Positions 1 through 64,000 of a DNA stretch of 64,000 nucleotides are shown here, in pieces (positions within the stretch are counted from its first letter, which is position 1; the number at the start of each line of letters is the position of its first letter). A program made the position numbers and the translations under genes. This DNA is from Callorhinchus milii (taxonomy: Eukaryota), in contig NW_024704742.1 of the NCBI RefSeq assembly GCF_018977255.1, positions 45,696,001 to 45,760,000 of the forward strand, given 5' to 3'. The notes beneath the pieces are model-generated. The model was not told the DNA's origin and searched no databases. It worked only from the letters and a program-made list of their open reading frames with translations.

Positions 1-772
1 CTAAGTCATTTAATGTGCCTTTTTATCCCTTCGGGAAACAATGATTGCCCTAAAGTGATAAGAAATTCTATACCTCGCAGGTTATGGAAGACAGAGGGTG
101 GGTTTCTTCTTCAGAGCCATGGGGTCAGTCACGTTGGGCACAAAGCTGTGTCTAACCACACACCCAGAAAAAGCCGCAGGGTCAGCTGGAACCAGATCAT
201 GTTTCTTTCATACAATTTAAGTGATTTTGATCTGGAACAAATTCACCACAGAATATTGCAGCAGTTAGGCTCCTGGTGGAACAGTGACGATCATGATTCA
301 TTCTCTATTTGTAATGGTTGCAGTGTGAAGAAAGTGTGAAGAAAGTTGTACTTTTTTTAAAATTCTAAAAACATAAATGCAGTCCTGCTCACACTGCCTC
401 GGAATTCATACTGCTCTGTATTTCAGAGTGCCAATGGGGGCAGGTTTGCTGCGATAAGGTTAGGTACAAGATTGCCTTTTACACCACAATTAAATTAATC
501 TTTAAAAAAATTGTTGACGAGAAAACAGACTTTTTATTTTGGGAATTAGCCAATGGGGCAGGAGCTATGGGGGTGGGGGGTGGAAGGTAGGAAGTAACAC
601 TTGCTCTTTGTTAATGTCAGTGAACTGATAACAGGATATCTCTTAATAAATGTGGAAGGAAATAAAGTGCCTTCGCACCCCCTCTGCTCCCACCTCCCAG
701 CCTGAGCTCAGGGGCCCATTCAGCACTATGAATAGCCTCCTGGGAAGGGGAGGTTTGGGGGGAGGAGGTAAG

Positions 773-1075
773 CCAAGGTGATGTGGTTGGCAATGGAATG
801 TTGGAATTGAGTCTGCCCTCTGTGGTGGTCTCTGTAGTTTAGTGCTGTAATACAGGTCCATATTACCCCAAGGTACTATTGATGGCAACCAGCCAGCCAG
901 GCTCAACAGCATGCCCTGGAGGGTGGTTTTGAGCAGCAGGGATTCTTCCCACTCACCTGTTTCTAAGCTGTACTGTCTATTAATCTATGAATATCTGTTA
1001 ACTCTGCAAATCGAAAACTTAACAAGTAGAGTGATCCTAACTATAGACATAGCAAGAAGCTTGCCAGCAGTATCT
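773..1075 (+). repeat. Fragment of unclassified multi-hairpin repeat family (family X)
   Basis: ccaaggtgatgtggttggcaatggaatgttggaattgagtctgccctctgtggtggtctctgt aligns with 35744-35810. Similarity continues through ctgttaac...gaagcttgccagcagtat (about 35915-35995). Confidence 0.8.
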
Positions 1076-1115
1076 CGTAGCATACTCTGACGTCTCCGAG
1101 TGTTACACAGAATAA

Positions 1116-1610: not shown

Positions 1611-2814
1611 GACTGATTATTATTGAACTCTAGTAGGATCTCTGGTTTATCGGGAAACTCAGTAATATGAGCAATGAAAACGTCTAAGGCAGACAGTAAA
1701 TTGACCACATAACTATGAAAATAAACAGATCAGTTTGCTTTAGCGACCTTGACTAAGATGAAAACGTTTCAGCTAAATATTATGCTCCAGTAAAAGAGAT
1801 GCAATGACCTTCTTGACTGCTCCAAATAAAAATACATTCCTGAAAATATCCCACTGCTGCTCTGATGCTTCAGGAAGCGATAGATTGAGGTGCAAAAGTT
1901 TAACTTTCACATTTGTACAGTTTAGCATTTAAATCTGATGTAGCAGACTTAATCCATTCAGGATTGTTCTGCTCAGATCCTGAAATTGACCTAATGCCAG
2001 TTAAAGTGGAGGAAGCTTTTCTCTGCCAAATCTAAAACAAGGAGATGTCAGATTTTTATCTCTAATGTTCATGTCAAGTGACTTGGAACTTTGTAAAGGA
2101 GATCTCACTAACCAAGTTCAGCAGACATTTAGAACAGAGCTCAGTTACCACTGGTATTACCGCAGAGCTGGAATTATTAATCATACAGAAACTGGGAGAT
2201 GTTACATTTTTGATGGCATTTCCAGTAAGAAACAGGTGGGAGAATTTGCCCACTGAGGAAACCATAACTCTCAGCCTGTTAAAGGGAAGCTAAGGTGACA
2301 AGAGTGTCACCAAAACTAAGGAAGGTCAATATTATCATCTATATTAGTTCAATGAAATACCACTCATAAACTTATCATTCATCAAACATACATGGGAAGG
2401 CTTATATCACCCAGAAAGGAGCAAAATCTGCCAAAACTGGGGAATGATCAGAGATAACATTTATATCATTCTTAGCAGAAGGAATGGAAGGTAACAGAAT
2501 AGAGGAGATCAGTATTACATGTATTTGCCTATAGAGATCAAGCTTAAATGATCCAGATACGTATCATCTATTTTTCATATCGGGGACCAAACTGCTTAAC
2601 TCCACTTTGATCTTGCAATTTACTGTATCAGTTGAATATCTTGACACTGCTTTGTAATGCACTTCCAGCTATCTATCATGCAGCTTGCAAGGTATGCAAT
2701 GCTTTTATACCATGATGACAAAGGAAATTCAGCATAACTATTCAACTATGTGGAATGGTTGGGAAGGGGGTGATAATCTGTGGATGTAATGGTTGTGCCA
2801 TTATATGTCAGGAC

Positions 2815-3030
2815 GACCTCACAAAGGCTTCACAGGATTTACAGTAAAGTGTAATCACTTTGTATTTTTAGGCAAGTAAAGCAGCCAATTTTACACACCA
2901 ATGTCCCACAAAGAGCCAGAAGATAAATAACCAATTTAATTGCAGGATTTGTTAGCCAGGTTGCATATTCACTTTTCATATAGTTTCATGGGATCTTTAA
3001 CATCCACATGAACAGCCAGACAAGACTTAA
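2815..3030 (-). mobile_element. Deu-SINE 3' half
   Basis: Contains gcagccaatttt...aatgtcccacaaa (Deu core) and catgggatctttaacatccac. Confidence 0.7.
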
Positions 3031-3239
3031 CTATCTAACCCAACACTGGTGCTCAAAAACTGAGTTATCCAGGAGGATTTTATAAGATTTAAAAGCCTGT
3101 GGATTTTACAAGGAAGAGAAGACTTGGGGGTGGTGGTGGTGGAGAGAACCATTGCAGTCTGGAGGTCCCGGGAGTTAGAAAAGGAGATGATGTGATGTGT
3201 TTTCATTTCAATATGGAGAGGATGCAGACAGGAGAAAGA

Positions 3240-3735
3240 ATACAATACAAAATTACATTTGTATAGCACCTTTCATGTTGGGGGGATGTCAGCAGGTGCT
3301 GGACAGTCAGGGATTTGGACCTGAGCTGGGGGGTGGGGGTTGTTGGGGTGAGGGAGGGTGGATGGCAAGGAGGGTAGTAAGGTGGCTGAATGCAAAGTTG
3401 AAGAAGTGGGTCTTGATTTGTGCCTTGAAGGAGGTAAGTAAGGGAGGCTGAAAGTACAACCGCCAATGACAAACCGGGCAGGGGACGTGGAGCAGGCCGG
3501 AGCCTGCTGAGCGGAGGGAGTGGACAGGCTAATAAGGGGTTAGTAGGTCACTGAAGTAGGAATGGACAAGGCCATGGAAGGCCTTGAAGGCGAGGACAAG
3601 GATTTTGAACTCTATCCTTTGAGGGATGTGGAGCCAGTGGAGCCAGGCAAGGGTGGGAGTAATTGGGTTACGGAATCTGGTGCGGGAGAGGAAATGATCT
3701 GCAGAGTTCTGAATGAATGTAGGATGGTGCATTTG
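3240..3735 (-). mobile_element. L2 LINE 3' fragment
   Basis: The minus-strand peptide NPITPTLAWLHWLHIPQRIEFKILVLAFKAFHG is the typical L2 ORF2 C-terminus, followed by the L2 tail (rc gaaaggtgctatacaaatgtaatttt). Confidence 0.9.
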
Positions 3736-4239
3736 GACCTTGAGAGAAAAAAATCAAATCCCTATTCACATACAAATAATTAAAGAGTACAATGACTAGT
3801 ATATAACTGAACACTTAATTTAATTTTTCTGGCAATGTTTATAACTTGCTATTGATTTGGATTATTTACAATATGCATTGATATTACTTTGCACAGCCTC
3901 ATCGTATATTTCTGCCAATACTATGAATCAGTACTTAGCTTTAAGTACAGCCAAGATGGCAAGAAACTGCTTGAACATATTGAAAACTCATTTAGTATCA
4001 ACATGATGGAAATAATGATCAAAATATGCTGATAACAGTGATTAATGATAATAAAACAAAATTTCTGAGACAGGTAATTACACAAATAGCTTTTATTTTA
4101 AAATTCATACCTGAAAAGTTGCATGCGGTTATTAGATAAAAGGACAGTAAAGTCAATTAGGACATCACATTTTCAAGAGTTTAATCCTCTTACCCCTAAG
4201 AGTGATCAGTGGCTGTTCTTCAACTGGAAGAGGCTAATT

Positions 4240-5757
4240 TCAGAGTTGAGAAGGGATCTGGCCCAGGCGGATTAGAAACAAAGATTGATGGGTAAAACGG
4301 TAAAAGAACAATGGGAGGCCTTCAAGGAGGAGATATTTAGGGTACAGACCAAAAACATTCCCATGAGGAGGAAACGTAGGGCATTCAAATCTAGAGCTCC
4401 CTAGATGACTAATGGCATTGGGATTAAAATGAAACAAAAACAGAAAAAGGAGACAAAGATAATTTTCACTTAGAAAGACAAGGCAAATCAAACTTAATTG
4501 AGTTCTTTGATGAAATAACGGAGAAGTTTAATGAAGGTAGTGCAGTTATGTAATGTATATGGACTTTCAGAAGGCATTTGATCAGATGCCGCATAATAGA
4601 CTAGTAAGCAAAATTGAACCCAATGGGGTAAAAGGGATAGTAGCAGCATGGATGCGAAATTGGCTGGGAGACAAAATACAGAGGGTAGTGGTGAATGGTT
4701 GTTTTTCAGACTGGAGGGAAGTATACAGTGGGTCTCCCAGGTGTTAATATTAGGTCCACTGCTCTTTTTGATATACGTAAATGGACTTGGGTATACAGAG
4801 CAAATATTTAAACTTTGCAGATGACACACAACTTGGGAATGTAGTAAACAATGAGGAGGACATAGACAGACTGGTGAAATGGACAGACACATGGTAGCTG
4901 AAGTTTAATGTAGACAAAGTGTAATGCATTTTGAGAGGAAGAATGAGGAGAGGAAATGCACAATAAATGGTACAATTTTAAAGGGGGTTCAGAAGCAGAG
5001 AGACCTGGGGGTTCACATACGCAGGTCTTTGAATGTGGCAGGACAGGTTGCCTATGAAACCTATGAAAAAAGCATATGGGATCCTTGGTTTTATATATAG
5101 ATGCATAGAAAAGCAAGAACTTTCTGCTAAACCTTTATAAGTACTGGTTAAGCCTCAGCTGGAATATTGTGTCCATTTCTGGGCACCACGCTGTAGGAAG
5201 CATATCAACATCAACTACAACTTGCATTTATACAGCACCCTTCACATGGGGCAACGTCCCGGAATGCTATCAATGCCTGGAGAGAGTGTAGAGGAGATTT
5301 ACCAGAATGGTACTAGGGATGAGGGACTTTAGTTACGTGGAGAGTCTAGATTGTTCTCCTTAGACAGAGAAAGTTAAGGGGAGATTTAATAGAGGTGTTA
5401 AAAATTATGAGGGGCTTTGATAAGAGCAGAAAGGGATAAACTGTTTCCATTGGCAGTTGGGTTAGTAACCAGGGCACATAGATTTAAGATAATTGGCAAA
5501 AGAACCAGAGGGGAGATGGGATACATTTTTTTATACAGTGACTTGTTACAGTCTGGAATGCACTGCCTGAAAGGGTGGTAGAAACAGATTCAATAACAAC
5601 TTTCAAAAGGGAATTAGATAGGTACTTGAAGAGGAAAAATATGCAAGGATATGGGGAAAGAGCGGAGAGCGGGACAAATTGGGTAGAGCTAGCACAGACA
5701 TGATGGGCCAAATGGCTTCCTTTGTGCTGTAATATTCTATAATTCTAGGATTCTATG
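4240..5757 (+). mobile_element. CR1 LINE, 5'-truncated, frameshifted, internally deleted ORF2 plus 3' UTR
   Basis: Peptides YMDFQKAFD, QRVVVNGCFSDWREV and FADDT, and cctcagctggaatattgtgtcc (PQLEYCV). 3' end gatgggccaaatggcttcct...attctat repeats. Confidence 0.93.
5209..5267 (-). mobile_element. Short L2 3'-tail insertion inside the CR1
   Basis: L2 tail (rc gggacgttgccccatgtgaagggtgctgtataaatgcaagttgtagttg) flanked by direct TATCAA at 5203-5208 and 5268-5273. Confidence 0.75.
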
Positions 5758-6320: not shown

Positions 6321-8174
6321 GTGGCTTTTTCTCCCTTTGTGAAAATTAACAGACTTGATATGTGTGCTTGTGGAATTTATTTGTAAGAGCACACCCCAGC
6401 ATTGGAAAAACTACCTCCTTCCCACATATTTTTCAAACACAGAGGGAATTTCTCTTCATCCCTCCACAATCTGGCTTTCTGGCCAATGCACATTTCAAAA
6501 GGAAAGATTTATCTGAATTTTCTTTATTTTAAGGTGTGTGTACAATTCCCATCGGCTGTCCGTTCGGTTTTCAATAAACTATATCTGCATCTTTATATGT
6601 AAACAACGTTTCTTGATCTGCAAAATAGTTTAATTGTTACAGTGTATGCAATATCAAAATTCTTAACCAAATCCTGATAGCTGCTTGTTTGGTCCAAACA
6701 GCAGACCAAGTGTGAAGTTCACAATAGTGCCACACATTTCTGTCAATGGCATGATCACACAGATTGGCTGCAGTGCAGGACCTGTCACTGACACTTTGTG
6801 GGTGCAGCCAGCACAAAATCACTGAAATGTATGAGAGTAAGTCAGAAAGAAATAACAATTAATTCATTAGATTATTGAGCATGCCTCCTCTGCTTATGCT
6901 TCAGTAAAAATCAAGGTGCCAAGAACAACACTAAGTGTCCTTGTAACTAAAAGGTGACAAGGACATTAGTGAACACTGTAAGGGAGTACTAAGATTTTTA
7001 TCATATTGTCTTTGTTCAGTTTTAACAACCACGTCAGCTGGTGGGAAAATCCTAAGGATATACTAGGAGGCGACGGTAAGTTGAACTGTAGGGAAAGAAC
7101 TGAGGCTTTTAGAAGGAAATTCTGGAGTTTGCAAGGAAATTTGAAAAAAGTTAATCTCAAATGCAGAACACAGTGTGTGAATACTAAAAAGCAGAATGCA
7201 TGCAAATCACAGCTGGTTGAGGTTACTTTGCACAGATGGAATTTAGATAGTATAAATTGAAAACGTTCTGCAATAAGTTTAAATTCACTGGGACTCAAAA
7301 ATCCAGCGGAAATAAATTGACTGCAGAAATTATAATACTTACCATTTCTGGTACACTCAATGATCTCAGGAGAAAAATTCATGTTTGGAACATAGGGATA
7401 ATCTGAATATTATCTCGATATTTTCTATATTCTCCCTGATATGGACATTTTTTTGGCATTGCTCGCTTACTCTAACTGGGGTTAATAATTTCTTTTTAAT
7501 CCACCTGCTTAGTTGTAAAGCATTACAATAATAATCCTTGCATTTGCATTTGCTCTCAAAGACCTCTAAAAGTGTTAACAAGCAAACTGACCTAAACATA
7601 AAGGAACTGCCTGTTCAGCATGATTATGTAATATGCTAGCATGGGTTTGCACTCAAATTGTTGTTAAAATTAGCAACAAGAGAAACGTTCAGGCAAAATT
7701 CCAAGCAGCTACCCTGTACATAATCTATTGTAATGAGAAAAAGAATGTTACTGGTTTCATGGTCAATAAAAGTGCCTTTCTCCAGAACTTATTCTGTTCA
7801 AATTGATAAAAGTAAAAATATTCCAAATATCGAAAAGAAAATGGCAAGAACAGTAATTTTCTTTGACAAATGCTTCAGTAGTGATTGATATATGTGACAG
7901 ATTAATAATAATCCTTACATTTCATATTGCACCTTTCATGTCAAGAGGACAATTCAAAGTGTTACACAGGATATACTGTAAAGTGTAGTGACTGGGTATT
8001 TCGTAGCCAATTTATATTAATGGGGATGAAAAGAACTTAGAGAACAGCCTTGCTTGGAGTTTCTTACTAAAGTGCAGGGAGAAGGAAGTTCATGTGGTAA
8101 AAATCATGATATTGTGATGTTTTCATCAGATCCAGGATAGACTTTGCCAACTCTCTGCTCATCAGACTTCTTTA

Positions 8175-8645: not shown

Positions 8646-8944
8646 GTCCTGTAGCTCAGTGGTTAGAGCACTCGCTTTGCAAGCGAGAGACCTGAGTTCA
8701 ATTCCAGGCAGGGCGAAATCTTGGGCAAGTTTCCTTACTCCACACGCCTAATAATAATCCCTCCAAAAACAATAATAAATTGGTCATTTTCAATCTACGA
8801 CTGTTTGTGGGACATTGCTGTGCGCAATTGGCTGCCGCGTTCGCCCACAAATATACAGTCAATTCACTTTACAGTGTGTTCTGTGAAGCGCTTTGGGACG
8901 TCCTCCTGACGTGAAAAGCGCTATATCAAATGCAAGGATTATTA
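8646..8944 (+). mobile_element. Young full-length tRNA-Deu-L2 SINE with a tRNA-Ala(TGC)-like head (SINE2-1_CM-like, from memory)
   Basis: A box tagctcagtgg, B box gagttcaattcc, Deu core tgtgggacattgctgtgcgcaattggctgccgcgtt, L2-type stem-loop and TTA tail. Near-identical to 50771-51100. Confidence 0.93.
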
Positions 8945-8967: not shown

Positions 8968-9285
8968 GGTCAGCCTGGCGCAGTGGTAGCACTCTTGCCT
9001 CCGAATCAGAAGGTTGTGGGTTCAAGCCACACAACGTTAAACTGATCTGCCTGTTCAGGTGGATGCTAAAGATCCCATGGCACTGTTTCAAAAAGAGGTT
9101 ACAATACAATTGGTCACTCACTCCATGGCTGTTTGATGGATATTGCTGTGTGCAACTGGCTACCACATTTCGTCCACAAAATACAGTCAATTCACTTTAC
9201 ATATACCTTGTAAAGTGCTTTGAGACATCTCAATGACATAGTAAGGCGCTATATCAAATCCAAGAATTATTATTGTTATTATAAT
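8968..9285 (+). mobile_element. Older tRNA-headed Deu-SINE
   Basis: Head gcgcagtggtagcactcttgcctccgaatcagaaggttgtgggttcaagcc, then ctgttcaggtggatg, the Deu core and an L2-like tail. Confidence 0.85.
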
Positions 9286-11262: not shown

Positions 11263-11267
11263 AAGAG

Positions 11268-11362
11268 ATGCATCTCTTCAGGGAGAGAGGGTACATCCCA
11301 TTTCAGACACAAGGAAATTTCCAAATGGAAATGGCATACATATGTGAAACTCTCAGTCTGTT
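11268..11362 (+). repeat. Family X fragment
   Basis: gcatctcttcagggagagagggtacatcccatttcagaca resembles both 35673-35710 and 36125-36160. gaaactctcagtctg resembles 36203-36217 and 44657-44671. Confidence 0.6.
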
Positions 11363-11389
11363 GTTTGATGCTCTTGAGGATGTGTTGCT

Positions 11390-18960: not shown

Positions 18961-19959
18961 ACAGCCTATGTGGTTGCACTGCAGTACACAAATTGCAAGA
19001 TTCTTAAAACGATTTGGAAAAGTGAATGTGACAAGTATCAGGATGTACCTCAGACCAATCTACTGGAACTCCGCTTGGATGCCAAACTTCACTACAAGCC
19101 TACCTTCATCACATTAGAAATTCTTAATACCCATTGAATCTAATTAACAAATTCATCGGTTTTCTCATCCTAAACACACCAGGAACTTCAGTTGCAATGC
19201 AATCCTATCTGTGCACAATCTTTTCTTTAGAATTGCTCACCTGATGGAAACACAACATGCTATAATCTTTACACTGAGTTAATTGAAGATGCAAAATTCT
19301 TCACCTCAGAAGACTAGCCAATAATGTTGGGGATTATAGCATTCATTTAAGGTATAGTTCAGACAACACTTAGAAAAAAAAAGATAACCATGTTGTCCTT
19401 AGTTGAACACAAAGAAAGAATAAAGACCACAGTGCTCTGATGGAAAATATTGTTTAAGCCAAGCACGCTTTCGTTTGGGACTGTGCCAAATCAATCACTA
19501 CAGTACAGGATTAGAATGAGAAAATAGTAATGGAAACAACTGGAGTGAACTCAGATGAGAGATAAAGTTATAAACTGGAAATATGTTAAAATGGTTGCAT
19601 TTGGCCTAAAATATTTATAAAATGTGAAATAAATAACACTGACTTTTAGAAGTCCATTTTCACTTCATAACCGTCATGGAAGTTTGATCTTTGAGTTCTG
19701 AACTTCAAAGAAATTGCCTGGCTAGAGATATTAGTGGTGGTCGATTTAAGTTATTACGTCTTCTTTAATTTGTATTTGGGGCTAATAGATATCCGGGAGG
19801 TCATTCTAAGGCTCTAAACATATCAAGGAAATCAGATGATGTCATAAATCATGAAACTAAAGTTTAAGCAGTGTAACTGTATTTTAAACCTTATGATGTG
19901 ATATTAAAGCTTGAAAGTACTTTTCGGTATAATTCAGTATAGTTTAAAATATGACACAG

Positions 19960-20040
19960 AAACAGGACTACCAAGACTGCCATTTTCGATAGTTTTGTGT
20001 CAGGCACCTAACCTTGGAGCCAGCTCAAACTAAAGAGACA
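19960..20040 (-). repeat. Family X fragment
   Basis: Reverse complement reads ctggctccaaggttaggtgcctgac versus ctggctccaaggtgacatgcctggc at 35738-35762 (13-nt exact seed). Confidence 0.6.
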
Positions 20041-22314
20041 TTGGGTTTGCCTATAACTTACACAGTCACTACACTTTATAGTAAATCATTTGAAGCATTG
20101 AGATATCCTCCTAATGTGAAAGGCACTATATCAAATGCAAGGCTTATTAATATAGGCAAATTAGATTTGTATCTAGATTGGGAAAGATATTGGAGTAATT
20201 CATAAAGGAAAAGATTCAATCACATTTTACATGAGCACAGGCAATGCTTCCAAATCAACATAGTCTCCTACATTTATTAAAATCTTTTTGAAATACAATA
20301 GAGGTCCTACCTGATATTAATTCATTGTGTTACAATATAAGGCAATGATATTTAAGCATATGGAGAAAAGACAATGAAATGTGATTAAACTATTGATAAA
20401 AAAATCTATTCATGGTGGTATTCAGCTGCTCCTTTGATACCTCTGAGTATAAGGAGCAAAGACCAAATATCTTTGTGATTTTGAAGATTTTATCGATAGT
20501 GTTTCCATTCAAGTTATTACTCTCTTTCCTGCAGTAGGAGTCTCATGCTGAGTGTTCCATTTTGCCTACACTTCTTAAGAAGCTGCAACTTTATGTTTTG
20601 CAATGAATCTCTTTCAATGCCACTGTATTTCCTTCCTCTGCCATTTCACTTGCTGCCTGTGAAGCATATTCAAATATGGGTCTGTGTATCATTTGCATCT
20701 GATTAGCAATGCAGTCACCTGCAATTTGCATGAGAGCAGATAGTTCTACTTGGAAACAAATTGATTTAGTCGGAGAGGGAAAAATTGTGCTTTAAGTTGA
20801 ATTCTTCCTATTAAGTAAGTCACAGGGGGAAAAAGAAACATCCACCAATTACTGGTTAAATATAATGACATTTATGCTGCATCTGCATCATTTCGTAGGA
20901 AATGTATCTTCAAACAGGAAGAAATGCAAAGAACTTCAGTCTGTTAATAACTGATAAAATAACTTTTCCAAAATAACTATGATCCTTGCCTTGTCATAAT
21001 TTTAAACATGATTCATAAATGTCAAACTGGAACTAAAAAATACATATGGTAACTAAAAATGTAAGTGTTAGCTTTTACCATAATTATCCCCTGACATTTC
21101 ACATTGACAGGAAGCATTATAATGTCACAGGATAGATGTTTTAGTGTGATTTCAGTAAAGCAGTTCTGACACATTTTGTAAACATAATCCAGTGGAATTC
21201 TATGTTTGGCATTTCTAAAGTGATGAATTATTTAAACACTGTTCCTTGCCCAGAGAGTGCTGTGTGAATCCCTTTCAGAAAACCAGAATAAATAATGGAT
21301 AGATAGGAAGGAAGAAGTTACAATTCAGCTAACACAGCCGAGGGGATGATGTAAGCATCTGTGAGTTAAATTTGAGCAGTTTATTCACTTCAGTTAGCAT
21401 TAAAGTCCATGTTAACTTTTATTCCTGAATATGCTTCGCCGTATTTTGGGGAAGGAATAAGGGAAACAAGCATGTCAGCACCTGTCTGGCCTTTTGCACC
21501 CCTCCTCTTGTTAACTGTTCACAAAGGTAGCTGCAAAGTTGAAGAAAGCAATGTCGTAATAGGAAGGATCGACATACACATGAAAATACGCATGGTTTTT
21601 TCTCATTGTTGCCTTTCCCGTTACAGGCATATAATTCATTTTCAGAGTAGCTATGGGCTTTTGAGAACCACATTAACAGAAACATGAACCAGCTTAAGTT
21701 TCCAATTGCAGAAAACTGCTCTGATTGAATTTGAATATTAAATTAATTCCCAATGTATACGTCCACTGTGGTTACCTGACACTTGCTTTTCCTGTTCAAA
21801 TGTCCACCATGTGGCATTTTAGCACAAATAATTCTTATTAGAAGGATTAGGTAAAAAAGGTATTAATGAAAACTTGTTAATGATATGAGCAAAGACACCA
21901 AGGATATAAAACATAGCTTCCAAGCAGACTAATTTCAGACACAAAAAGGTATCAGGTGTTTCATTATGGCAGTCTCTTGGTTTGAGAAGTTTAAATCCTC
22001 TCAAATCCAGAAACTGTTGTTCATTAGTTTGCGGACAAACTTTTGGCCAATATTTCCGTAACTCTCGAGGTCTGTCTGCATGTAAAACTGGTTGGTATCA
22101 TTCATTCAATTAAAACGTTGCAACAATGAGACGTGACATTTAGGATTTTGTGGATAACTATCATCAATAGTAAACTGCTTGATGTTGTTTTGTAAGATAT
22201 TTTCGTGTTTTTTTTCCAATTTCTTTTTTGAATTTTCTCCCCATTGGCACATGGCTCTCTATCTCCTCTCTGCTTATTGTAATACAGTCTATAGGAACTG
22301 ATTGCCCTCCAATA

Positions 22315-33273: not shown

Positions 33274-35654
33274 GTAAACAATTAAGAACACTCTCTTCAT
33301 AATGTATGATTGGTATAATCTTTAGTTGATTCAATTAAAATTTAATTAATTCATTTATAACTTTTTTCTACAATTACCTTCAATGTAGTGAAACATGTTT
33401 ATTAACTGCTATATTTTGGCTTCACAGTATTTGCTCTACAGTCAGCTTATTTTTCAAGGGTTGGAAACATTGTGCCATGCAGAATATAGCTAACAAAGTA
33501 TTTGGGATTGATATCAATGCCAGTTTGATGTAGGTTTAAATGCAAACCTAACAGGAATCTAAAACAAGGAATGGAGCCGGGTACAAGGCAACCCTTTTCT
33601 CAAGCTTCTCGTGAGAACGCTTAGATGTAGGTATTTTGTGAACTTGTGGTTAAGGGAAAATGTGGTGGTGCAGTGTGGTGCAGTGTGGTCAGCTCTGTGC
33701 ACAGCATAGTTGGGTGATACAGCATGAAAACTGGGAATAACTTCAGCAATGGTCTGATGACCTTGAAGTCATTTTGAGACATGCCTTAAAAATGGGGAGG
33801 GAGGAAAGGAATTGGTGGGAACCTGGGATTGAATTCTGGAGAGCGAGGGCAGAATGTCTGAAAACTGAACCACTGTTGGTAAGGAGAATAAACTGTGGGA
33901 ATTGAAGCAGGCCGCTGACTGAGTGAAGGCAGCAGTTGGTTAATACAGTTTGAGGAGGGTCAGAAGGAGAGTTAATAATCCTTGCATTTGATATAGCGCC
34001 TTATCATGTCTTCAAGATATCTCAAAGAGCTTCACAGAATATACTGTAAAGTGAATTATCTGTATATTTGGAGGGCAAAACCATGAATGGATTGAAAGGT
34101 AAAAACAAAGATCTTCAACTTGATCTGCTAAGGGATGGAGAGCCACTCGAGCTGAGTGAGGAAGACTCACAGAGGCTGTTGCAGTGGAGGGATTTCTGGA
34201 TAATCTGCAGCTTGTGTAGGCAGGCCCTGGGATACAATATTTAATGGTCTATAGGGGTTCCCCATTTACAATTCACTGTGCTGAAGTTCATGGACTTTGA
34301 TTGCTGGTTAGCAGTAGCAATTTTAAGCAAATACCTGAGAAGTCTGTACATCGCTCACCAGCACTTGAAGGAGTTATGTGGGCATGGCACACTACCATTG
34401 AGAACAGCTTTAGGGGAATGGGGGCTTGACTAGTTGATTTGATAAATATTATTTGGACTGCAATTTGACTGCAATATCTGATATAATTTGTAAGCTAAAA
34501 TGAACACATAAAGACATGTGTGGAGGAAACATGCTGAGGGACTGATGGATTGCATGATGCAACCTGTACAATGAAGTTCTTTATATGTAATGAATGGTGT
34601 TTTATTAGCACATTATTTTGAGTGGACACATCTGAAATAGATGCGAGTCGAATTCACATAGAAGTAAAATCTGCTCTTTTGCAGCTTTTCTAAGGCAAAG
34701 TATTCTGCACATGTATTAACAACAGGAAAACTCACAAACTGAATATATATACTGGTTTGTTGTGTCCCTTTAATTAGAGCCTTTTTTTGTTTCCTTAGTG
34801 CTTTCTAGCCAAAGAGAAACACTGCTTACCTTCCTCTCAAAAGATAGTGATGTGTTCTTGAGCCTCGTGCCTGTCGACTCCAAGATGGTTATTGCTTTAA
34901 AACTAGCTAACAACAATAATAATAATAACAATAATACATGCATACAAATATAATCTGTAACAAACCACATCATATAAATACACTGGATTGCACCTGCAGT
35001 ATCATTAATGTGGGCATTCCAAGTGATAATGCATATAAAATAAGGAATTAGAGAAAACCAGGAAGCAGGTAGACTTACAAATTGAATGCGGATTCATGAG
35101 GCAGTACAAGATAAGCATAGTTCCTATAATCATTGTTACAACGGGCCTGTTAATAAGACAATTCCGAAATGGCTTGAAAAGATATTTGATGCACAAAATA
35201 TCAATCTGCTGCAATTTTAAGAAGTTAACATGGCAGTGTTTTTGGTCTGTCTGACCCATCACTAAAAATACTTAGAAACTACAGACTAATTTAAACTATA
35301 ATAACATGATAATAGTCATCTTTATTCTTGATATAGCACCTTTCACATTAGGAGGATGTTCTAAAGTGCTTCATACGATATACTGTAAAGTACAGCGACT
35401 TCGTGTTTTGTGGCTGCATGTGGCAGCCAATTTTAGAATTACCAGAAATGGATAAAGACAAATATTCTGTGAAGACGTAAAATATTTTGCTAAGAATTAC
35501 TTTGGATTATGTCTGCACTGCAAAAGCCCAATTACCCCAGCAAATTCCAACATACAGAAAATAATATGATAATACAAAATTCTGTTCATGGAAACAGACC
35601 CAACTTTTCAAATCTTTCCTCATAACCTATAATACTTGATTCCTGGCACGAGGG

Positions 35655-36285
35655 TTGCCAGGGTACACAGGTGCATCTGTCTGGGGAGAGTGTGCAGTCC
35701 ATTTCAGACAGATAAGCGGGGTCTCCTTGGAGCTAAACTGGCTCCAAGGTGACATGCCTGGCAATGGAATGTCGGAATTGAGTCAGCCCTCTGCGGTGGT
35801 CTCTGTGGTCCAGTTTCTGAGCCAGGTGGGTCCACTGTATTCCAGGCTGGCTCATCGGCAGGACCTGGAAGGCCAGACCGGTCACTGGGGGCAAAGACTC
35901 ATACCACTCAGCTACTGTTAACCCGACAACCCAAAGCCTTAATGGGTAGGATGGTCCTAGTTGGACAAGCAGCAGGAAAGCTTGCAAGACAGTATTATCA
36001 ATGACAAACTATGCAGTTTTAGTTGGTTAGACTCCAGCAGTACCCCAACACACACTCTGTGGTACCCAAGACTTGGCTCTTGCCAACCTGAGCCTAATAC
36101 TTTCCAGAATTAGATAAGCAGGAGGTGTCCCTCCAGAGGGAGAGGGCGCATTCCATTCCAACAATCTACCTCTGGGATTTCCATGTGTAGGTAGGATGCA
36201 TGGAAATCTCAGCTTGGCTTGGAGACTCTTAGACATGGTGATGTATTTCTGCATGTGTCAGAGACCCAGCTGACAAAATAAAATT
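35655..36285 (+). repeat. Longest copy of unclassified multi-hairpin repeat family X
   Basis: Matches six other loci in the window and contains successive inverted repeats (see findings). No credible ORF. Confidence 0.85.
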
Positions 36286-37400
36286 CCAGGCACATGAAAA
36301 TTTCCATGTATATGTGATTTTATAAAGTGTAAATAATAATAATAACAATTCTTACATTTGATATAGCATCTTTAATATCAGGAGGGTGTCTTAAAGCACT
36401 TTACAGAATATATAGTAAAGTACAGCGATAATGTACTTTGTCAGCAAACATCCCTGTAAATAAGAACAAAGTCACTCCAATACAACTCCTTAAAGTGCAT
36501 TTCTTAGTGAGTTAATAATAGAATGGGTTATCTTTCAAACATTGGGTGGATAAATATATGGGTTTGTCCAAAGGATGAAGTGAAGATAAGTTTGTGAAGG
36601 AGACAAGGTAGTATTGTTTTTAACCCTGTCTGTATCATTTTAGGTCCCTGTAATGTCCTGCTATGAAGTCAAACATTGTTTATAATAATAATAACAATAA
36701 TTATAATAATAATAATACTTATTGGTAAGCAGGATGTATCCATGCAGGGATGCATCCTGCTTACGTTTGATATAGCACCTTTCACATCGAATGGAAGTCT
36801 CTAAGCGTTTAATAAGATTTTATTGTAAAATGTTGTGACTGTGTACCTTGAAGGTGAACATTTCTAGATTAAGACTGCGCAAATAAATTATTTTTTAAGG
36901 CAGGCGGGTGTTGCTCTGTCAAATTGTGGGCTATGGGTCACTTAGAAGAAGTTGCGTTCCTCTATTTATTTCATGCCAGTCACGAAGAGAAAAAATAAAT
37001 CACTAAACTAAATGTTTTTTAGTTCCAGCATTTGGGATTTGAGCAGTGGACTGATAATCAGAAGATCTTCAGTTCTCTCTTCAATCACTTATAGGCTGTT
37101 CCGTTCTAAAAAGATGTAAGTGATTTTTCCATAGATATTTACACATTTTATGGCACAAATGGGATTAGATATTTGACTGATATCAAATATATTTGTTTTT
37201 TAAGTTTCTTTTTGCATGAGTTGCCACAGTGTTATTTTTTTTATCAGCTCTTTCATTTGAAATGTTCAAAACCTCTGTGCCTTCAACCTTGATGTTATCT
37301 TTATAATAAAGTCACATCGCTCCACAGAAGCGAAATTCATAACTACGCATAGTATGTCTTACACCAGTTCATTTCAAATGTTTTTTGACATTGTTCAACT

Positions 37401-44611: not shown

Positions 44612-44672
44612 TCCAGAAACAGGGACATTTCCATGTGTAGGTGATATACATGTGTGAAAAACTCAGTCTGGT
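44612..44672 (+). repeat. Family X fragment
   Basis: atttccatgtgtaggt is shared exactly with 36177-36192, then ...catg...gaaa..ctcag. Confidence 0.65.
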
Positions 44673-44964
44673 CAGGATAATCATAATTTTTTAAAAATTC
44701 CAAATTTGGATAAATTGAGAAAAGTTCTGCCTTTTCTCACTCTGCAAAAAATACAGAATTCTTGATTAGCATTAATTACAAACACAGGGTGAGATTAAGA
44801 GCTGTTTTTTAACACAAAGAATTTTTAGAACATTTTACGACGTGGAATACCCTACTTAGAAACAAGATTGTGGCAAAATCTATATTAGCCTTTAAAAAGG
44901 AATTAGATAAATATCTGAAAAGTAGTACATAAAAGTGGTTGGAAAAAGCAACAGAATGGGATTA

Positions 44965-49849: not shown

Positions 49850-50197
49850 TATTTTGGTCAGCCGGCTGTCTGACACGTGTGTAAACCCATCACTATGCTT
49901 AAGAATATCCAAGTCAAGCTGAGAATTGCATGCACCCCAGCTACACATGGACATTTCAGAAATGTTTTTTGGAATGAAAAGTGCACTCTCTCCCTGGAGG
50001 GCCACATCCTGTTTACCTAATTCCAGAAGTTTTATGTGCAGGTTTGCATGAGCCAAGGTTTGGGTACACCAAGGTGTGCTTCGGGGTACTGTTGGAGTCT
50101 AACCAGCTAAAACCGCATAGGTTGCCATTAAGAGCACTGCCTAACAGGCTTTCCCACTGCTTGTCCAGCTAGGACCATCCTACCCTGCAAGTTTCAC
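49850..50197 (-). repeat. Family X, inverted copy of the 3' half
   Basis: Reverse complement aligns colinearly with about 35935-36285 (gggtaggatggtcctag.tggacaagcag; gttttag.tggttagactcca.cagtacccc; ccctccag; tccatgtgtag; ctcagcttg). Confidence 0.88.
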
Positions 50198-50770: not shown

Positions 50771-51100
50771 GTCCTGTAGCTCAGTGGTTAGAGCACTCGC
50801 TTTGCAAGTGAGAGACCTGAGTTCAATTCCAGGCAGAGGGCGAAACCTTGGGCAAGTTTCCTTACTCCACACAGAGCCTAATAATAATCCCTCCAAAACA
50901 AAACAATAATAAATTGGTCATTTTCAATCTACGACTGTTTGTGGGACATTGCTGTGCGCAATTGGCTGCCGCGTTCGCCCACAAATATACAGTCAATTCA
51001 CTTTACAGTCCATTCTGTGAAGTGCTTTGGGACGTCCTCCCGACGTGAAAAGCGCTATATCAAATGCAAGGATTATTATTATTATTATTATTATTATTAT
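50771..51100 (+). mobile_element. Young full-length tRNA-Deu-L2 SINE with a long (TTA)n tail
   Basis: Near-identical to 8646-8944. Confidence 0.95.
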
Positions 51101-54900: not shown

Positions 54901-55064
54901 TTGTGGAGGGAAAGGGCTTGATACAACATACCTTAGTTTCCTACTTTCATGTGTTCAAATATAAAAAGGAATAATTATCTGCTAGTAAGGAAGTAGCGGA
55001 GAGCTAGAGTATACATACTGATTTAAAAATCATCCCTGCAACAGCTAAATAAGTGTAAATAAAA

Positions 55065-59330: not shown

Positions 59331-61210
59331 TTTCACATTTAACATCTTCTGATTAGGAAGCACAATATAGTATCAATTGAACATTCAGAGATCCATCCAA
59401 ATGTCTCTCAGGAATTTGTTAGTTTTAATTTTCAGCTCAGTGGGAGAGATCACACTCATTGCAACAACCAGACTTCCTCAAGCAGCTTGAAGTTTGTGTC
59501 CCATTTAATGAATAAACAAAATGCAGAGCTTAAATATTATTTAATTGATCAGAAGAACTCAATATTTCCATTCAGCAGAAAAATGATGTTTGTCTCAATG
59601 TAAATCCCATACTCTTTTAAAACTGTTTGACTTTTTTTTATAGCTTTTCTCTGTTTCCTTTTATAATGTTTTTATTTTCAGACTTGTTTCACTAGGTACA
59701 ATTATTTCCATGTGCAAATAAATTTCAGGGTGAAGATTGCGATCTGCAATTTGTTAATTATCACTGATGTTAATTATCTTTTGTAAATATATCAATGAGG
59801 TCAGTCGAGAATTTGGGAGTGACTCCCCACTTCCCCAGTTTCTTCCAGACTCTCTCATAATTGTAAAACCTGAATGTGACCTGCAAATCGTAGCAATGGA
59901 TAGAATCACTCAATTTCCAATTGGTATCTTATTAATTAACACTCTAATACTTGGAATGCGTGAGCCATGTGATAGCTTAGGACCACTTGGGCCTAACCGT
60001 TGCACCAGAGTCAGAAGGTAAATAGAGGTTGTTCTAGTAGTTAGTTATCAACTAATCTCATTGATACATGTTCGAATGATGTGATATTTACCACCCAGCT
60101 TTTATCAAAGGCCAGCAACACTTTCATTGCTGGTGTAACATTTGCTTATTAGGGGAGACATATGTGTCTGGGATGCAAGCAAGTGGATGGTGGCAACAGT
60201 CTCGCACATTTCCTGCAGAATTGTGTTGCTCACCAAAAGATTCACAGAGAATTTCTAGTACCTGATATTCACTATCCACCATGTGAGGGCCTTACTCTCC
60301 TCTCAAGGCTTTTCAAACTCAACCCACTGGAAGAGATTGGCACCATTCTTTAACATTAGACTTGTGCCAAAAAATTATAGGAGAGTCAGTTGGTTGTGAA
60401 TTGAAAGTGAAATTCCATTTGTAGACCGACAGCAGGATCCATTTTCTGATTTTAAGATTATCCCTGTATCATTGCCAATTACATTGTCCTTTGGAAAGAG
60501 GAATTATTCGATGGCCTTTAAAACTTCTATTCAATTTGTTGTAAAACATACACTTAGGATTGTCAATGCTGTGACTTATTTCTTCTTTTATTCCTGTGAT
60601 CTACTTTCAGCTAACCACTTTGGTTTTGAAAACCATTTTGTCACACAGTGGGTCTTCTTCTTTGCGCATTGAACATTTGTTGCAATGAAAGTCCTCGCAG
60701 TAAGATGGGCCATTAAAATGGAAGCAATTATTTCTGCTGGGAAGGTAATGACTGCATTAGCATTAACCAATACTAAATCTTAAACGCTGCAGCTGTATTA
60801 AGAACTAGCAAAACTCCTGAGATTGAACCATTGTTTCATCACACTTCTCCCTTCCAGACTTTCTATCATTATAAACGTTATAGGTTACAGCTGCGGCCAT
60901 GATTGCTACCTTTCTGCCTGTTATGAATTATGAAATAGTACTTAAATTCTGATTACCCACTATTGGTGGGTGAACTTTCAGTCATTCTGCTCTGCTTTCT
61001 TCTCCGCCCCCACTTCCCCCAGTTCTCACCAACTCGGGACTGCATATTAAACATACAAACCGATGAGATGCTACAAAACCTGATTTGTGTTGAAATATAT
61101 TTTGTAGAGCAGCATTTCTTTCATTGTGTCTAAAATAACATTTCCGAGATTTGAAAAAAGAAACTAACTAAAAGGTGTGCCGTACACACCAATGACTGAT
61201 AACTTGTGGA

Positions 61211-61556: not shown

Positions 61557-61678
61557 CTAGACAGGAATGTCTAATTGAAACCACCTGCAATATACTGCAG
61601 AGGTTCTTCCCGCCTTGGGACGTCCTCCTGACGTGAAAGGCGCTCTATAAATGGAATCTTGTTGTTGTTGTTGTTGTT

Positions 61679-61860
61679 CCCATTCGACTCCTGTCAACCC
61701 TGCAAACCATAGCCTACAGAAGTAGGGTGGTCATAGCTGGATAAGCACCGAGAAGATTGCCAGACACAATTCATAATTGTAAGCTATGCAGTTTTAAGTG
61801 GATAAAGTCCAACAGTAACTCCAACATACAGATGTGAGCTCTTGCCAACCTGGACCTAAC
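61679..61860 (+). repeat. Family X fragment
   Basis: ctgtcaaccctgcaa...gtagggtggtcatagctggataagca...ctatgcagtttta...gctcttgccaacctg aligns to about 35905-36095. Confidence 0.8.
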
Positions 61861-64000
61861 ATAATATAAGGTTACCAGCATTCGTATTCCATACAATAAA
61901 ACTAAAGTCTAATGTAAGCCAACCTGAGCCCAACTGAGCGTTTGTGTGATGCTCTGACAGTGTGGCAGTATCAGAGTTTCACTCACATGCACCAGTGACT
62001 TTAGTTATCAACTGGCTGTATTTTGCCACAATGTGCTTAATTGACATATCACACTCTACACTGTTAACTCCTATTTTATTAGCAAACATTTTAACTTCTG
62101 AACCAATATTTATTTTGCTGATAACTATTTCAGAAGTTTCGAGTAGCTGTTGAAATTTGAGAGTCCAGCCACAAATAACTTGTTCAGAGTTTGCTTTCAC
62201 ATGCATAAAGGCATTCGTGAATGAGAATTGTTTACTCCTATTAATTAAAACATGCTTCACTGCCAAACTGTTCTTGTGGTCGAAACACTGTGTAGTCTCG
62301 CTGTGCGGGAAAGTTGTAATGCAGGTTTAAAACCAGGATATTTGTTGAATATTTTCAATTTGTCTTCCTAGGATCACCCTACTTGTTAGGGCTGTGGCTT
62401 AAAGGGTTAACAGAAGTTGAGTGGGAAGAGCCTCTGTTGTATATATTTATGCTGCATATGAGTACGTAAATGATTATGGAGATATATGTGTATATGGATA
62501 CGTATATGTGATGGTGGTTTGAAGATACAGAGAAACAAAGAGAGACCAATGGACAATGGCAGCACATTTTGCTATGAGATAAAAAAACTGTCCTGAAATA
62601 TTGAAGAAGTGGGTTTACTATAAATCTTAGAGATCTATAATGTTTAAGTCTACAGTTTAAAAGTTTTATGGAGATTGAAAAGGCTCTGTTTATGAAGTGC
62701 AATAAGTGTGTCAGTGTTTGGTTAAAATACGGTCATTTATGGCGGTGCAAATGCAAATTTGCAATTCATTAGTATCACTAATGAGAATGATTATATTGCC
62801 AGTATTTTGTTCGAGGCCCACATAATTTCACAATTTGTTTGTGTGAAACTAAACGGGCTGGGAATTTGATTTCAACTTACATTTAATAAAACGGGGGACA
62901 GAGGAACATTTGTACAAAAATAAAGAGATGCGAACTGGAAGTCAAGTCTACTGCACAAGAAAATGGTGGTTATACAATATAATATCCATGGATTTGATAT
63001 AGAGCCTTAACTTGTTGTTGATATGTCTCAAAGTGCTTCACAGGATTTGCTGCAAAATTATAGTGACTGAATTCCGTAGGCCAATATGACATTGAATGTT
63101 GCATTGCTTACCCCATTGTAAATCAAAACGTTTATTTGATCAATAGGCAATGCACTGATGTGAGCAGTGTACCTTTAAGTAGTGGGACTGCAGGTAGACT
63201 TCCATTATTCTGCATGTGGTGAAGCTGATCTGAGACATTAAAGGGAGATATATCCCTGAAGAGGCAAGATAAAAATAGATACCAGGTCAACTTGACTACC
63301 ATTCCCCCCTTGCTTCCTGCTGTCTGTCTGAGACCAGGAATTAAGAACAAATCTTAGAAAAAAGTTAAAGCAAAAAAATCTTTTCCTGAGATCTGGGGTG
63401 TGAAGGGTGATATTTTCTAGCCTTTCTACAAAGTACAAAGTTATCCAAGGGGAAAAAGAATATATTTTTTAATAAAACCTGTTTGTAACAAACCTAAAAA
63501 TGATAAAGTAATATTTGTTTGAAAAACGCTGAGATATAAACAGCCAAAGGAAGTCTTTTTTTTCATCAATTTCATTTCAAAGTCAGTCCACAGCAAGCAA
63601 TTTTATGGAATCTCTATTTTGTGATCAATTCATCACATCCTGTCCAAACTAACCACTGATCTCATTAAATGCCTTTTCATATCAAGTCTCAGATTTCCTG
63701 TTTCGTTCAATTTCTTTTTCTTTTTGTCCCCCACTCCTGGATTCTCTTGTAGGAGGAGAACAATTCACTCACTCAATCTTGATGAATGCCACTTTGTGTG
63801 TTTGATTGATAACATTTTTACCAGTTTACTTCAAACACCATTTTCCAGGATATTTTAGATTTTTTTTCAATGGATCACAACACAATATATTCATTTAGTC
63901 ACTTACTCAGCAGAATTACATTTATATGAAAATATTTTCTTTTCTAGGATGTTTTCAGGGTGAATCTTAGATCTCGAATTGCAATGTTGGAAGTGACATA

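What the first reader, a model, noticed from the sequence alone, without database searches (positions are those of the whole stretch)
35655..36285. Unclassified ~630-bp repeat built from consecutive hairpins, at least 7 copies in 64 kb (family X)
Seen: fragments at 773-1075(+), 11268-11362(+), 19960-20040(-), 35655-36285(+), 44612-44672(+), 49850-50197(-) and 61679-61860(+). The longest copy starts with a three-way junction. The closing stem is ttgccagg (35655-62) / cctggcaa (35757-64), and the arms are atctgtctg (35675-83) / cagacagat (35705-13) and ccttggagc (35725-33) / gctccaagg (35741-49). Further stems follow: tagga-tgg-tccta, ggctc..gagcc, ggagg-tgtc-cctcc and a 14-bp ctgggatttccatg / catggaaatctcag (36172-36212). 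Combining the 61691 and 50181 copies restores another stem, accctgcaa..ttgcagggt. In the stems checked, mismatches are G-U compatible on one strand. No ORF, tRNA head, TIR or LINE tail is visible. Inference: a dispersed element whose RNA or ssDNA structure mattered, for example a structured SINE body, a retroelement 5' UTR or a retrozyme-like unit. From memory, ccaagg..ggcaatgga..ga.tga..t.ccctct..ggtggtc and gaggtgtccctccag loosely resemble the LF-SINE body; this is unverified.
Basis: partly seen in the sequence, partly recalled or inferred. Interest (0 to 1): 0.75.

Follow-up and report, generated by a model that had tools for sequence, protein, structure and literature searches.

The report
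Truncated LINE retrotransposon tails, hairpin-rich 3′ UTR
The "family X" repeat is the roughly 600-base untranslated tail of an abundant LINE retrotransposon whose copies are cut short at the front, so it is ordinary genomic debris, although the ancestral tail RNA does fold unusually well.

Summary
The repeat family is real. It is not an unclassified SINE or retrozyme-like unit. Longer copies elsewhere in the genome run upstream, without a break, through a stop codon. They continue into an ORF ending in a CX2CX10HX4C motif, then a reverse-transcriptase domain (Pfam RVT_1), and then endonuclease-like motifs. All copies end in ...CTGAC(C) plus a short A-rich tail, and their 5′ ends vary. Family X is therefore the ~600-nt 3′ UTR of an endonuclease-type LINE. 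Its closest intact relatives have an L1/Tx1-like domain order, but the clade is not resolved.

The window copy covers about 35714-36283. The "restored" stem is an artefact.

Two hairpins (35721-35753 and 36172-36212) are family features. The consensus 3′ UTR folds far better than shuffles on the sense strand (z -6.85). The antisense strand gives -3.76 and the neighbouring ORF2 stretch -0.44. There is no covariation among copies, as expected for copies decaying neutrally. RT recognition of the 3′ UTR is an inference, not shown.

The parts
35714..36274 (+). Younger copy of the family. It is the 3' UTR body of the LINE, 5'-truncated about 20-30 nt downstream of the ORF2 stop, just 3' of a G-rich tract.
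   Evidence: nhmmer places 35708-36283 on model positions 663-1264, E 4e-182. Contig depth jumps at 35713 and the loose ends there carry the canonical family sequence. Non-CpG divergence from the consensus is 8.5%.
36275..36283 (+). Short A-rich 3' tail (AAAATAAAA) after the conserved ...CAGCTGAC end.
   Evidence: In alignment A1, 25 of the 26 copies that reach the 3' end finish in ...CTGAC(C) plus an A-rich run.
35661..35710 (+). Decayed fragment of an older copy of the same family (model ~1094-1144).
   Evidence: Local alignment score 31 against shuffles of 17.9 +/- 2.2, maximum 28. nhmmer gives E 2e-3 for this flank alone. Depth in DNA-like runs is single-copy up to 35675.
36296..36316 (+). 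Continuation of the older fragment (model ~1157-1174) beyond the younger copy.
   Evidence: Score 24 against shuffles of 15.0 +/- 1.7, maximum 21. Direct repeat D1 links 36177-36192 and 36300-36315. The modelled empty site aligns as one piece to model 1094-1173, E 4e-4. Support is weak to moderate.
35701..35713 (+). Candidate target-site duplication, left copy (ATTTCAGACAGAT). The right copy is 36283-36295 (ATTCCAGGCACAT), with 10 of 13 bases matching.
   Evidence: Read from the sequence and consistent with the nested-insertion model. An alternative pair is 35640-35649 with 36284-36293 (9 of 10). Not settled.
35721..35753 (+). Hairpin H1 at the start of the 3' UTR (CCTTGGAGC / GCTCCAAGG core). 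A family feature.
   Evidence: Present in the consensus. Fold -22.9 kcal/mol, z -4.85 on the sense strand and -5.11 on the antisense strand. Inverted repeat I3.
36172..36212 (+). 17-bp hairpin containing 3 G-U pairs, about 70 nt before the A tail. A family feature, more stable on the sense strand.
   Evidence: Present in the consensus. Sense -22.7 kcal/mol, z -4.31. Antisense -15.8 kcal/mol, z -3.32, with only 10+3 bp formed. Helix 31 is 89.4% paired across copies.
49850..50186 (-). Second copy: the 3' half of the UTR (model 924-1262).
   Evidence: nhmmer E 1.5e-86. Non-CpG divergence 13.8%.
729..1079 (+). Old copy covering the 5' half of the UTR (model 644-1030).
   Evidence: nhmmer E 1.4e-39. 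Non-CpG divergence 27%.
61678..61885 (+). Fragment (model 883-1109).
   Evidence: nhmmer E 3.8e-29.
60119..60290 (+). Fragment of the ORF2 3' coding part (model 444-605).
   Evidence: nhmmer E 1.5e-18.
62359..62436 (-). Fragment (model 873-950).
   Evidence: nhmmer E 3e-13.
11266..11382 (+). Fragment (model 1102-1218).
   Evidence: nhmmer E 2.5e-9.
19953..20039 (-). Fragment (model 676-778).
   Evidence: nhmmer E 1.2e-7.
44624..44686 (+). Fragment (model 1155-1213).
   Evidence: nhmmer E 1.2e-4.

Best explanation
Family X is the ~600-nt 3' untranslated region of a high-copy non-LTR retrotransposon (LINE).

SHOWN
- The layout of the element: endonuclease-like N-terminal part, reverse transcriptase, a CX2CX10HX4C motif about 30 codons before the stop, the 3' UTR, ...CTGAC(C), and a short A-rich tail.
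- Copies arose by reverse transcription starting at the 3' end and are cut short at variable 5' points. Most copies are therefore UTR-only.
- The window copy (about 35714-36283) is cut just 3' of a G-rich tract that follows the stop codon.
- The ancestral UTR RNA is strongly and sense-specifically structured.

PROBABLE
- The window copy is inserted in an older, decayed fragment of the same family. That older fragment supplies the extra stems of the 'three-way junction'.

INFERRED (about 45% likely)
- The structure is the cis signal by which the element's own RT picks its template, as in 'stringent' 3'-end recognition.
- The stable 5' part of the UTR and the G tract also make the RT stop there, giving a cluster of 5' ends.
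For: CONTIGUITY WITH THE LINE
- Walking upstream from the repeat, 23 of 83 profile hits span the ORF2-tail/UTR junction without a break.
- L019:1408-1608 encodes ...CQNCGQEDGDNALTHFMLRYVAHREARRKF... and then a stop.
- Pfam RVT_1 matched 4 of 9 ORF pieces further upstream. Three were above the gathering score, at E 4e-10, 3.9e-9 and 7.5e-9.
- Pieces reading ...ATWNVNSLGGK and ...HILTLQE... and ...SDHWPV lie upstream of the RT. That these are endonuclease motifs is recalled knowledge.
- The closest intact protein, P0002, is 47% identical to an RT piece. It carries Exo_endo_phos, RVT_1 and a weak zf-RVT, and its best solved relative is human L1 ORF2p at 1.7e-27.

TRUNCATION AND TAIL
- 5' ends vary.
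- First-look candidate counts for long probes fall from 12,723 in the UTR to 2,643, 907, 209 and 59 over about 3.5 kb.
- Copies carry an A-rich tail.

STRUCTURE
- Consensus UTR: sense MFE -282.3 against shuffles of -237.4 +/- 6.5 (z -6.85); antisense z -3.76.
- ORF2-tail control of the same length: z -0.44 and -0.69.
- Window copy: z -3.70 sense and -2.82 antisense.

BOUNDARY
- Searches place the 5' boundary of the copy at about 35713.
Against: - The clade is unresolved. Pfam found nothing in 6 endonuclease-region pieces, nor in the piece carrying the SDHWPV motif, which was one of the 9 scanned.
- One RT piece matched solved R2 proteins (9e-10) better than L1 ORF2p (1.5e-4). The CCHC alignment to P0002 is not significant (E 0.93).
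- Target-site duplications were not demonstrated. Only 2 of 22 copies exceed the control 95th percentile (Mann-Whitney p 0.21).
- Equal 141-nt probes gave non-monotonic first-look counts: 2,051 in the ORF2 tail, 4,255 at the UTR start and 2,429 at the UTR 3' end. Those counts are not copy numbers.
- Against a functional role of the structure: there is no covariation among copies (87.4% of cells paired against 87.2% in shuffles; score 0.078 against 0.077, with 152 of 500 shuffles as high).
- The antisense strand also beats shuffles.
- The last 54 nt before the tail are not structured (z -0.04).
- No SINE sharing the tail was found among 8 short fragments.
- No full-length copy was recovered.
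Confidence: 0.88

Rival explanations
1. The hairpins are real in the ancestral sequence but play no part in template recognition. They could be by-products of internal inverted duplications, or serve something else such as RNA stability. On this reading the element is a 'relaxed', poly(A)-dependent LINE like mammalian L1.
For: - Copies end in an A-rich tail.
- There is no covariation among copies.
- The antisense strand is also more stable than shuffles (z -3.76), as DNA-level inverted repeats would give.
- The 3'-terminal 54 nt are unstructured.
- No partner SINE was seen among 8 short fragments.
Against: - The sense strand is clearly better than the antisense strand (z -6.85 against -3.76).
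- The 17-bp hairpin relies on G-U pairs.
- The adjacent coding part shows no excess structure.
- Passages of PMC3747384 state that a poly(A) tail does not exclude stringent recognition, citing SART1.
Confidence: 0.4
2. A distinct non-autonomous retroposon of about 620 nt. It would consist of the LINE's 3' UTR only, begin at the ORF2 stop, and be mobilised in trans through the shared structured tail.
For: - 5' ends cluster at the UTR start: 15 of the 56 profile hits that do not start at model 1-50 begin at model 601-700.
- 5 aligned copies begin within 5 columns at ...GTGACTAT.
- The first-look count doubles across the stop codon (2,051 to 4,255).
Against: - The loci were chosen by similarity to a copy that starts there, so the sample is biased.
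- No shared head or promoter lies upstream.
- 23 of 83 hits run on into ORF2, and starts also occur all along the model.
- A roadblock to the RT at the G tract and first hairpin explains the cluster equally well.
Confidence: 0.08
3. A structured SINE body related to LF-SINE or Deu-type SINEs.
For: The element is dispersed and has no ORF at this locus.
Against: - There is no tRNA, 5S or 7SL head. ARAGORN finds only 2 tRNA-like genes, both elsewhere in the window, and Rfam has 0 matches at 35400-36500.
- The sequence is continuous with ORF2 in 23 of 83 hits.
- The LF-SINE consensus itself could not be compared, because no Dfam or Repbase library is available.
Confidence: 0.03
4. A retrozyme-like or ribozyme-bearing unit that propagates through circular RNA.
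For: It contains many hairpins and has no ORF at this locus.
Against: - Rfam gives 0 matches at E<=1 on both strands, so no hammerhead, HDV-like or other ribozyme was detected.
- No terminal direct or inverted repeats join the two ends of the copy.
- Copies end in an A tail and are 5'-truncated.
Confidence: 0.01

Closest known systems
L1-superfamily LINEs (L1 / Tx1 groups)
   Same: - The domain order is endonuclease, then RT, then a C-terminal Cys/His motif, ending in an A-rich 3' tail with heavy 5' truncation.
- The closest intact relatives carry Exo_endo_phos, RVT_1 and a weak zf-RVT, and match human L1 ORF2p best among solved structures.
- Named database relatives are labelled LINE-1, TX1 or jockey by their sources.
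   Different: - No RT phylogeny was done and no ORF1 or full-length copy was recovered.
- One RT piece scored better against R2 than against L1.
- By recalled knowledge, mammalian L1 3' UTRs are not reported to need a large fold. Here the ~600-nt UTR is strongly structured.
- Site specificity, a Tx1 trait, was not examined.
'Stringent-type' LINE 3' ends recognised by their own RT (UnaL2/L2, R2, SART1)
   Same: A structured 3' UTR lies at the end of the template RNA. SART1 combines a required 3' UTR with a poly(A) tail (passages of PMC3747384 seen).
   Different: - A functional requirement has not been tested.
- The structure here spans about 600 nt, and the last ~54 nt before the tail are not structured.
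- No SINE partner sharing the tail was found (8 fragments only).
LF-SINE / Deu-domain SINEs
   Same: An old, dispersed vertebrate retroposon sequence of a few hundred bases.
   Different: Family X has no pol III head and is the direct continuation of a LINE ORF2. Sequence similarity to LF-SINE was not testable here.

Membership tests
LINE (non-LTR retrotransposon) | Reverse transcriptase ORF upstream of, and continuous with, the repeat | tested here: met
   RVT_1 matched 4 of 9 ORF pieces, 3 of them above the gathering score. 23 of 83 profile hits span the ORF2-tail/UTR junction.
LINE (non-LTR retrotransposon) | Variable 5' truncation with a common 3' end | tested here: met
   5' ends are spread along the 1,265-position model, and 34 of 83 hits reach the 3' end. 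Long-probe first-look counts fall from 12,723 to 59. Equal short probes were not monotonic.
LINE (non-LTR retrotransposon) | 3' tail of A-rich or simple repeats | tested here: met
   An A-rich run follows ...CTGAC(C) in the aligned copies that reach the end.
LINE (non-LTR retrotransposon) | Target-site duplications | tested here: inconclusive
   2 of 22 copies exceed the control 95th percentile (L006 18/21, L005 11/13). Overall p is 0.21. The window copy has candidates at 10/13 or 9/10.
LINE (non-LTR retrotransposon) | Endonuclease domain (APE type) N-terminal to the RT | tested here: inconclusive
   Pfam gave 0 hits on 6 pieces, and the SDHWPV piece also had no hit. Motif-level resemblance only (recalled motifs). 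tblastn aligns P0002 residues 303-383 to L046, E 3e-5. Relatives carry PF03372.
L1 / Tx1 clade | RT phylogeny places the element inside the clade | not tested
   No reference RT set was available. Indirect hints come, and a contrary hint.
SINE (including LF-SINE / Deu SINEs) | Pol III promoter head (tRNA, 5S or 7SL derived) | tested here: not met
   ARAGORN finds none at the locus. Rfam has 0 matches at E<=1 in 35400-36500. No shared head lies upstream of 8 short copies.
SINE (including LF-SINE / Deu SINEs) | Sequence match to the LF-SINE or Deu core consensus | not testable with these tools
   No Dfam or Repbase library is available here, and sequence recalled from memory may not be used.
Retrozyme / ribozyme-bearing retroelement | Self-cleaving ribozyme motif | tested here: not met
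   Rfam release 15 gives 0 matches at E<=1 on both strands.
Stringent-type LINE 3' recognition element | Excess RNA structure in the 3' UTR of the master sequence | tested here: met
   Consensus z is -6.85 on the sense strand and -3.76 on the antisense strand. The ORF2-tail control gives -0.44.
Stringent-type LINE 3' recognition element | Compensatory changes that keep the stems | tested here: not met
   No excess over shuffles among 31 copies. The copies decay neutrally, so this says little about the master element.
Stringent-type LINE 3' recognition element | 3' UTR required for retrotransposition, or a SINE partner with the same tail | not testable with these tools
   The first needs an assay. 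For the second, only 8 short fragments could be examined and none had a shared head.

The most novel reading that the evidence does not exclude
A poly(A)-tailed, L1/Tx1-like vertebrate LINE uses a very large (~600 nt), sense-specific 3' UTR fold as a stringent template-recognition module. The same fold, together with the G tract after the stop codon, blocks its own RT. This would produce thousands of UTR-only copies that may themselves be mobilised in trans as a retroposon without a pol III head.
Probability: 0.15. Interest if true: 0.5.

Novelty: new member of a known kind. Interest (0 to 1): 0.22.

Why it matters
The main result is a correction. A candidate "unclassified structured element" turns out to be the truncated tail of a LINE, so it should be masked and annotated as such rather than pursued as a new RNA class.

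The residual point of interest is for transposon specialists. The ancestral 3′ UTR is far more structured than chance, and more structured than the neighbouring coding sequence, in an element that also carries a poly(A)-type tail. [quoted passage not shown]

Tried and rejected
- **RNAalifold** on the 31-row alignment predicted 0 pairs. Many rows are partial, so I counted pairs on the consensus MFE structure instead.
- **Rfam** gave no match.
- **Pfam** on 6 endonuclease-region pieces gave no hit. Pfam on the CCHC piece gave no hit.
- **Protein Atlas** returned only generic RVT_1 clusters.
- **A second protein search** gave 21 unnamed relatives and did not help place the clade.
- **Solved-structure search** with one RT piece was ambiguous (R2 better than L1). 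A second piece had no hit.
- **Target-site duplication statistics** were not significant.
- **First-look candidate counts** with equal 141-nt probes were not monotonic, so I do not use them as copy numbers.
- **A common head upstream of short 3′ fragments** was not found.
- **Template-jump model** for the first 55 nt, using the TSD pair at 35640/36284: the modelled empty site gave no profile hit. The nested-insertion model gave one contiguous hit, which is weak.
- **RNA evidence:** no RNA holder is listed. The laid runs are contigs of uncertain kind, and I used them only for the boundary of the repeated part.
- **Earlier-findings look-ups** returned nothing.
- **Papers:** the listing and passages of PMC4350176 gave nothing specific to this family. 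I did not establish which organism the window comes from.
- **Technical failures:** two scripts failed on time or returned no answer and were re-run with fewer shuffles.

Full report

The window comes from a 991-Mb assembly of 1,762 contigs. I did not establish the organism.

So does a profile HMM built from 47 genomic copies. In the genome, the interval drew 12,723 first-look candidates, and all 40 scored full-length hits were 78-85% identical. The repeat family is real and abundant.

The coordinates need correcting. Four public runs give an independent check:
- Summed contig depth is about 10 in the flanks (runs X3 and X4).
- It jumps to thousands at 35713 and drops after 36286.
- Contigs from other copies continue before 35713 with ...TTGGGGGGGAGG, the canonical family sequence, not with the window's sequence.

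**2. What is it?**

I walked upstream from longer copies.
- It passes through a stop codon into an ORF whose last part reads ...CQNCGQEDGDNALTHFMLRYVAHREARRKF... (L019:1408-1608). This is a CX2CX10HX4C pattern; in L015 the last position is Cys.
- About 1 kb further up, ORF pieces match Pfam RVT_1 in 4 of 9 pieces scanned. Three are above the gathering score, at E 4e-10, 3.9e-9 and 7.5e-9.
- Still further up are pieces reading ...ATWNVNSLGGK......HILTLQE... and ...SDHWPV.... From recalled knowledge these resemble the first and last motifs of AP-type endonucleases. Pfam did not confirm them: 0 hits on 6 pieces.

Several results show the repeat is part of the longer element.
- 23 of 83 profile hits in my pool of loci plus the window span the ORF2-tail/UTR junction without a break.
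- All copies that reach the 3′ end finish in ...CTGAC(C) plus a short A-rich run.
- First-look candidate counts for long probes fall from 12,723 (UTR) and 10,345 to 2,643, 907, 209 and 59 over about 3.5 kb.
- Three equal 141-nt probes gave 2,051, 4,255 and 2,429, which is not monotonic. These counts are therefore only a coarse guide. The direct evidence is the spread of 5′ ends.

Family X is therefore the ~600-nt 3′ UTR of a LINE, and most copies are 5′-truncated to the UTR.

The clade is not settled.
- The closest intact relative is P0002, 47% identical to an RT piece. It has Exo_endo_phos (115-309), RVT_1 (657-915) and a weak zf-RVT (1137-1182). It matches human L1 ORF2p best among solved structures (1.7e-27, against R2 at 3e-19).
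- The few named relatives are labelled LINE-1, TX1 or jockey.
- Against this, one RT piece of the element itself scored better with R2 (9e-10) than with L1 (1.5e-4).
- No phylogeny could be made.

**3. The window copy and the "three-way junction".**

The copy runs from about 35714 to 36283, with the tail AAAATAAAA at 36275-36283. Its non-CpG divergence from the consensus is 8.5%. Other copies range from 5.5-11.3%, and older ones from 14-27%, so the family was active over a long period.

The 50 bases before the copy (35661-35710) align to a different part of the family, model 1094-1144. The score is 31 against shuffles of 17.9 +/- 2.2, maximum 28. The bases after the tail (36299-36315) align to model 1157-1174, with a score of 24 against 15.0 +/- 1.7, maximum 21.

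If the copy and one copy of a 13-nt duplication are removed, the two flanks align to the profile as one piece. The duplication is 35701-35713 ATTTCAGACAGAT against 36283-36295 ATTCCAGGCACAT, with 10 of 13 matching. The joined flanks align to model 1094-1173 at E 4e-4. The left flank alone gives E 2e-3, and an alternative model using the 9/10 pair at 35640/36284 gives no hit.

The favoured reading, with weak to moderate support, is a younger copy nested in an old decayed fragment of the same family.

Either way, the junction's closing stem and arm 1 use sequence that is not at this position in the family. Their 5′ arms occur in 0 of 31 aligned copies. The junction does fold well in this one copy (z -4.92). 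However, the window contains 46 perfect 9-bp and 251 perfect 8-bp hairpins of that kind.

The "restored" stem is an artefact. TTGCAGGGT exists neither on the window + strand nor in the consensus, and ACCCTGCAA at 50182 sits at the boundary of a minus-strand copy.

**4. Is the RNA structure meaningful?**

- H1 (35721-35753): z -4.85 on the sense strand and -5.11 on the antisense strand.
- The 14-bp stem, which extends to 17 bp with three G-U pairs (36172-36212): sense -22.7 kcal/mol, z -4.31; antisense -15.8 kcal/mol, z -3.32.

| Sequence folded | Sense z | Antisense z |
|---|---|---|
| Consensus of 20 near-complete UTR copies (617 nt) | -6.85 (MFE -282.3; shuffles -237.4 +/- 6.5) | -3.76 |
| Adjacent 617 nt of ORF2, same kind of consensus | -0.44 | -0.69 |
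| Decayed window copy | -3.70 | -2.82 |

Two results point the other way. The last 54 nt before the tail are not structured (z -0.04). Across 31 copies there is also no covariation: 87.4% of cells are paired against 87.2% in shuffles, and the score is 0.078 against 0.077, with 152 of 500 shuffles as high. Copies of a retrotransposon decay neutrally after insertion, so this neither supports nor refutes selection on the master element.

**5. How it most likely works.**

Shown: the repeat is the 3′ UTR of a LINE that is copied from its 3′ end and truncated at variable 5′ points.

Inferred (about 45%): the fold is the cis signal by which the element's RT selects its own RNA. This is the "stringent" mode described for L2/UnaL2, R2 and SART1, the last of which also has a poly(A) tail (PMC3747384, passages seen).

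Also inferred: RT stops at the stable 5′ end of the UTR and at the G tract. 15 of the 56 hits that do not start at model 1-50 begin at model 601-700. The sample is biased, because several loci were chosen by similarity to a copy that starts there.

The main rival for function (about 40%) is that the structure is incidental and the element is poly(A)-dependent like mammalian L1.

**6. Comparison and novelty.**

Ribozyme or retrozyme, SINE and 5′-UTR readings fail defined tests. The LF-SINE resemblance could not be tested without Dfam or Repbase.

This is a new member of a known kind at most. The family may already be catalogued, and I could not check. Interest is low overall. The one modest point of interest is the size and strength of the 3′ UTR fold in a poly(A)-tailed LINE.

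Noticed in passing
window 36325-36400, with matches at 55051, 51021-51089(-), 32365, 9214-9282(-), 44523, 7903, 52568(-), 31985, 45598(-), 8887-8944(-), 12010, 20095-20153(-) and 35328: A second, unrelated high-copy repeat starts about 40 nt after the family X copy. It has at least 13 further matches in the window. Contig depth spikes at 36334-36380 and 35347-35393. Two tRNA-Ala-like sequences lie at 8646-8715 and 50771-50841, within about 170-250 bp of copies of this repeat. It may be a tRNA-derived SINE.
   Followed up: partly
Family alignment A1 columns 16-54 (just upstream of window 35711); model positions 601-700: A G-rich tract of variable length (G5 to more than G12, interrupted) lies 15-20 nt after the ORF2 stop. 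5' ends of copies cluster there: 15 of the 56 hits not starting at model 1-50 begin at model 601-700. This could be a truncation hotspot or a UTR-only lineage. The sample is biased.
   Followed up: partly
window 35710-35720 and 36112-36122: The family has an internal direct repeat, AGATAAGCGGG / AGATAAGCAGG (consensus GGTAAGC[G/A]GG). One copy is at the start of the UTR and the other about 430 nt downstream (D2).
   Followed up: no
L057:6655-6977 (oriented) with L058:7728-8049 and 6913-7228; L003:3283-3560 with L004:2940-3214: Unrelated repeats of about 280-325 bp are shared between distant loci at 95-98% identity. They are much younger than family X, so a recently active element exists in this genome.
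   Followed up: no
window 50182-50190: The minus-strand copy at 49850-50186 is bordered by 10 nt (ACCCTGCAAG on the + strand). These match the family consensus at position 263 in the opposite orientation to the copy. This could be a small 5' inversion or chance.
   Followed up: no
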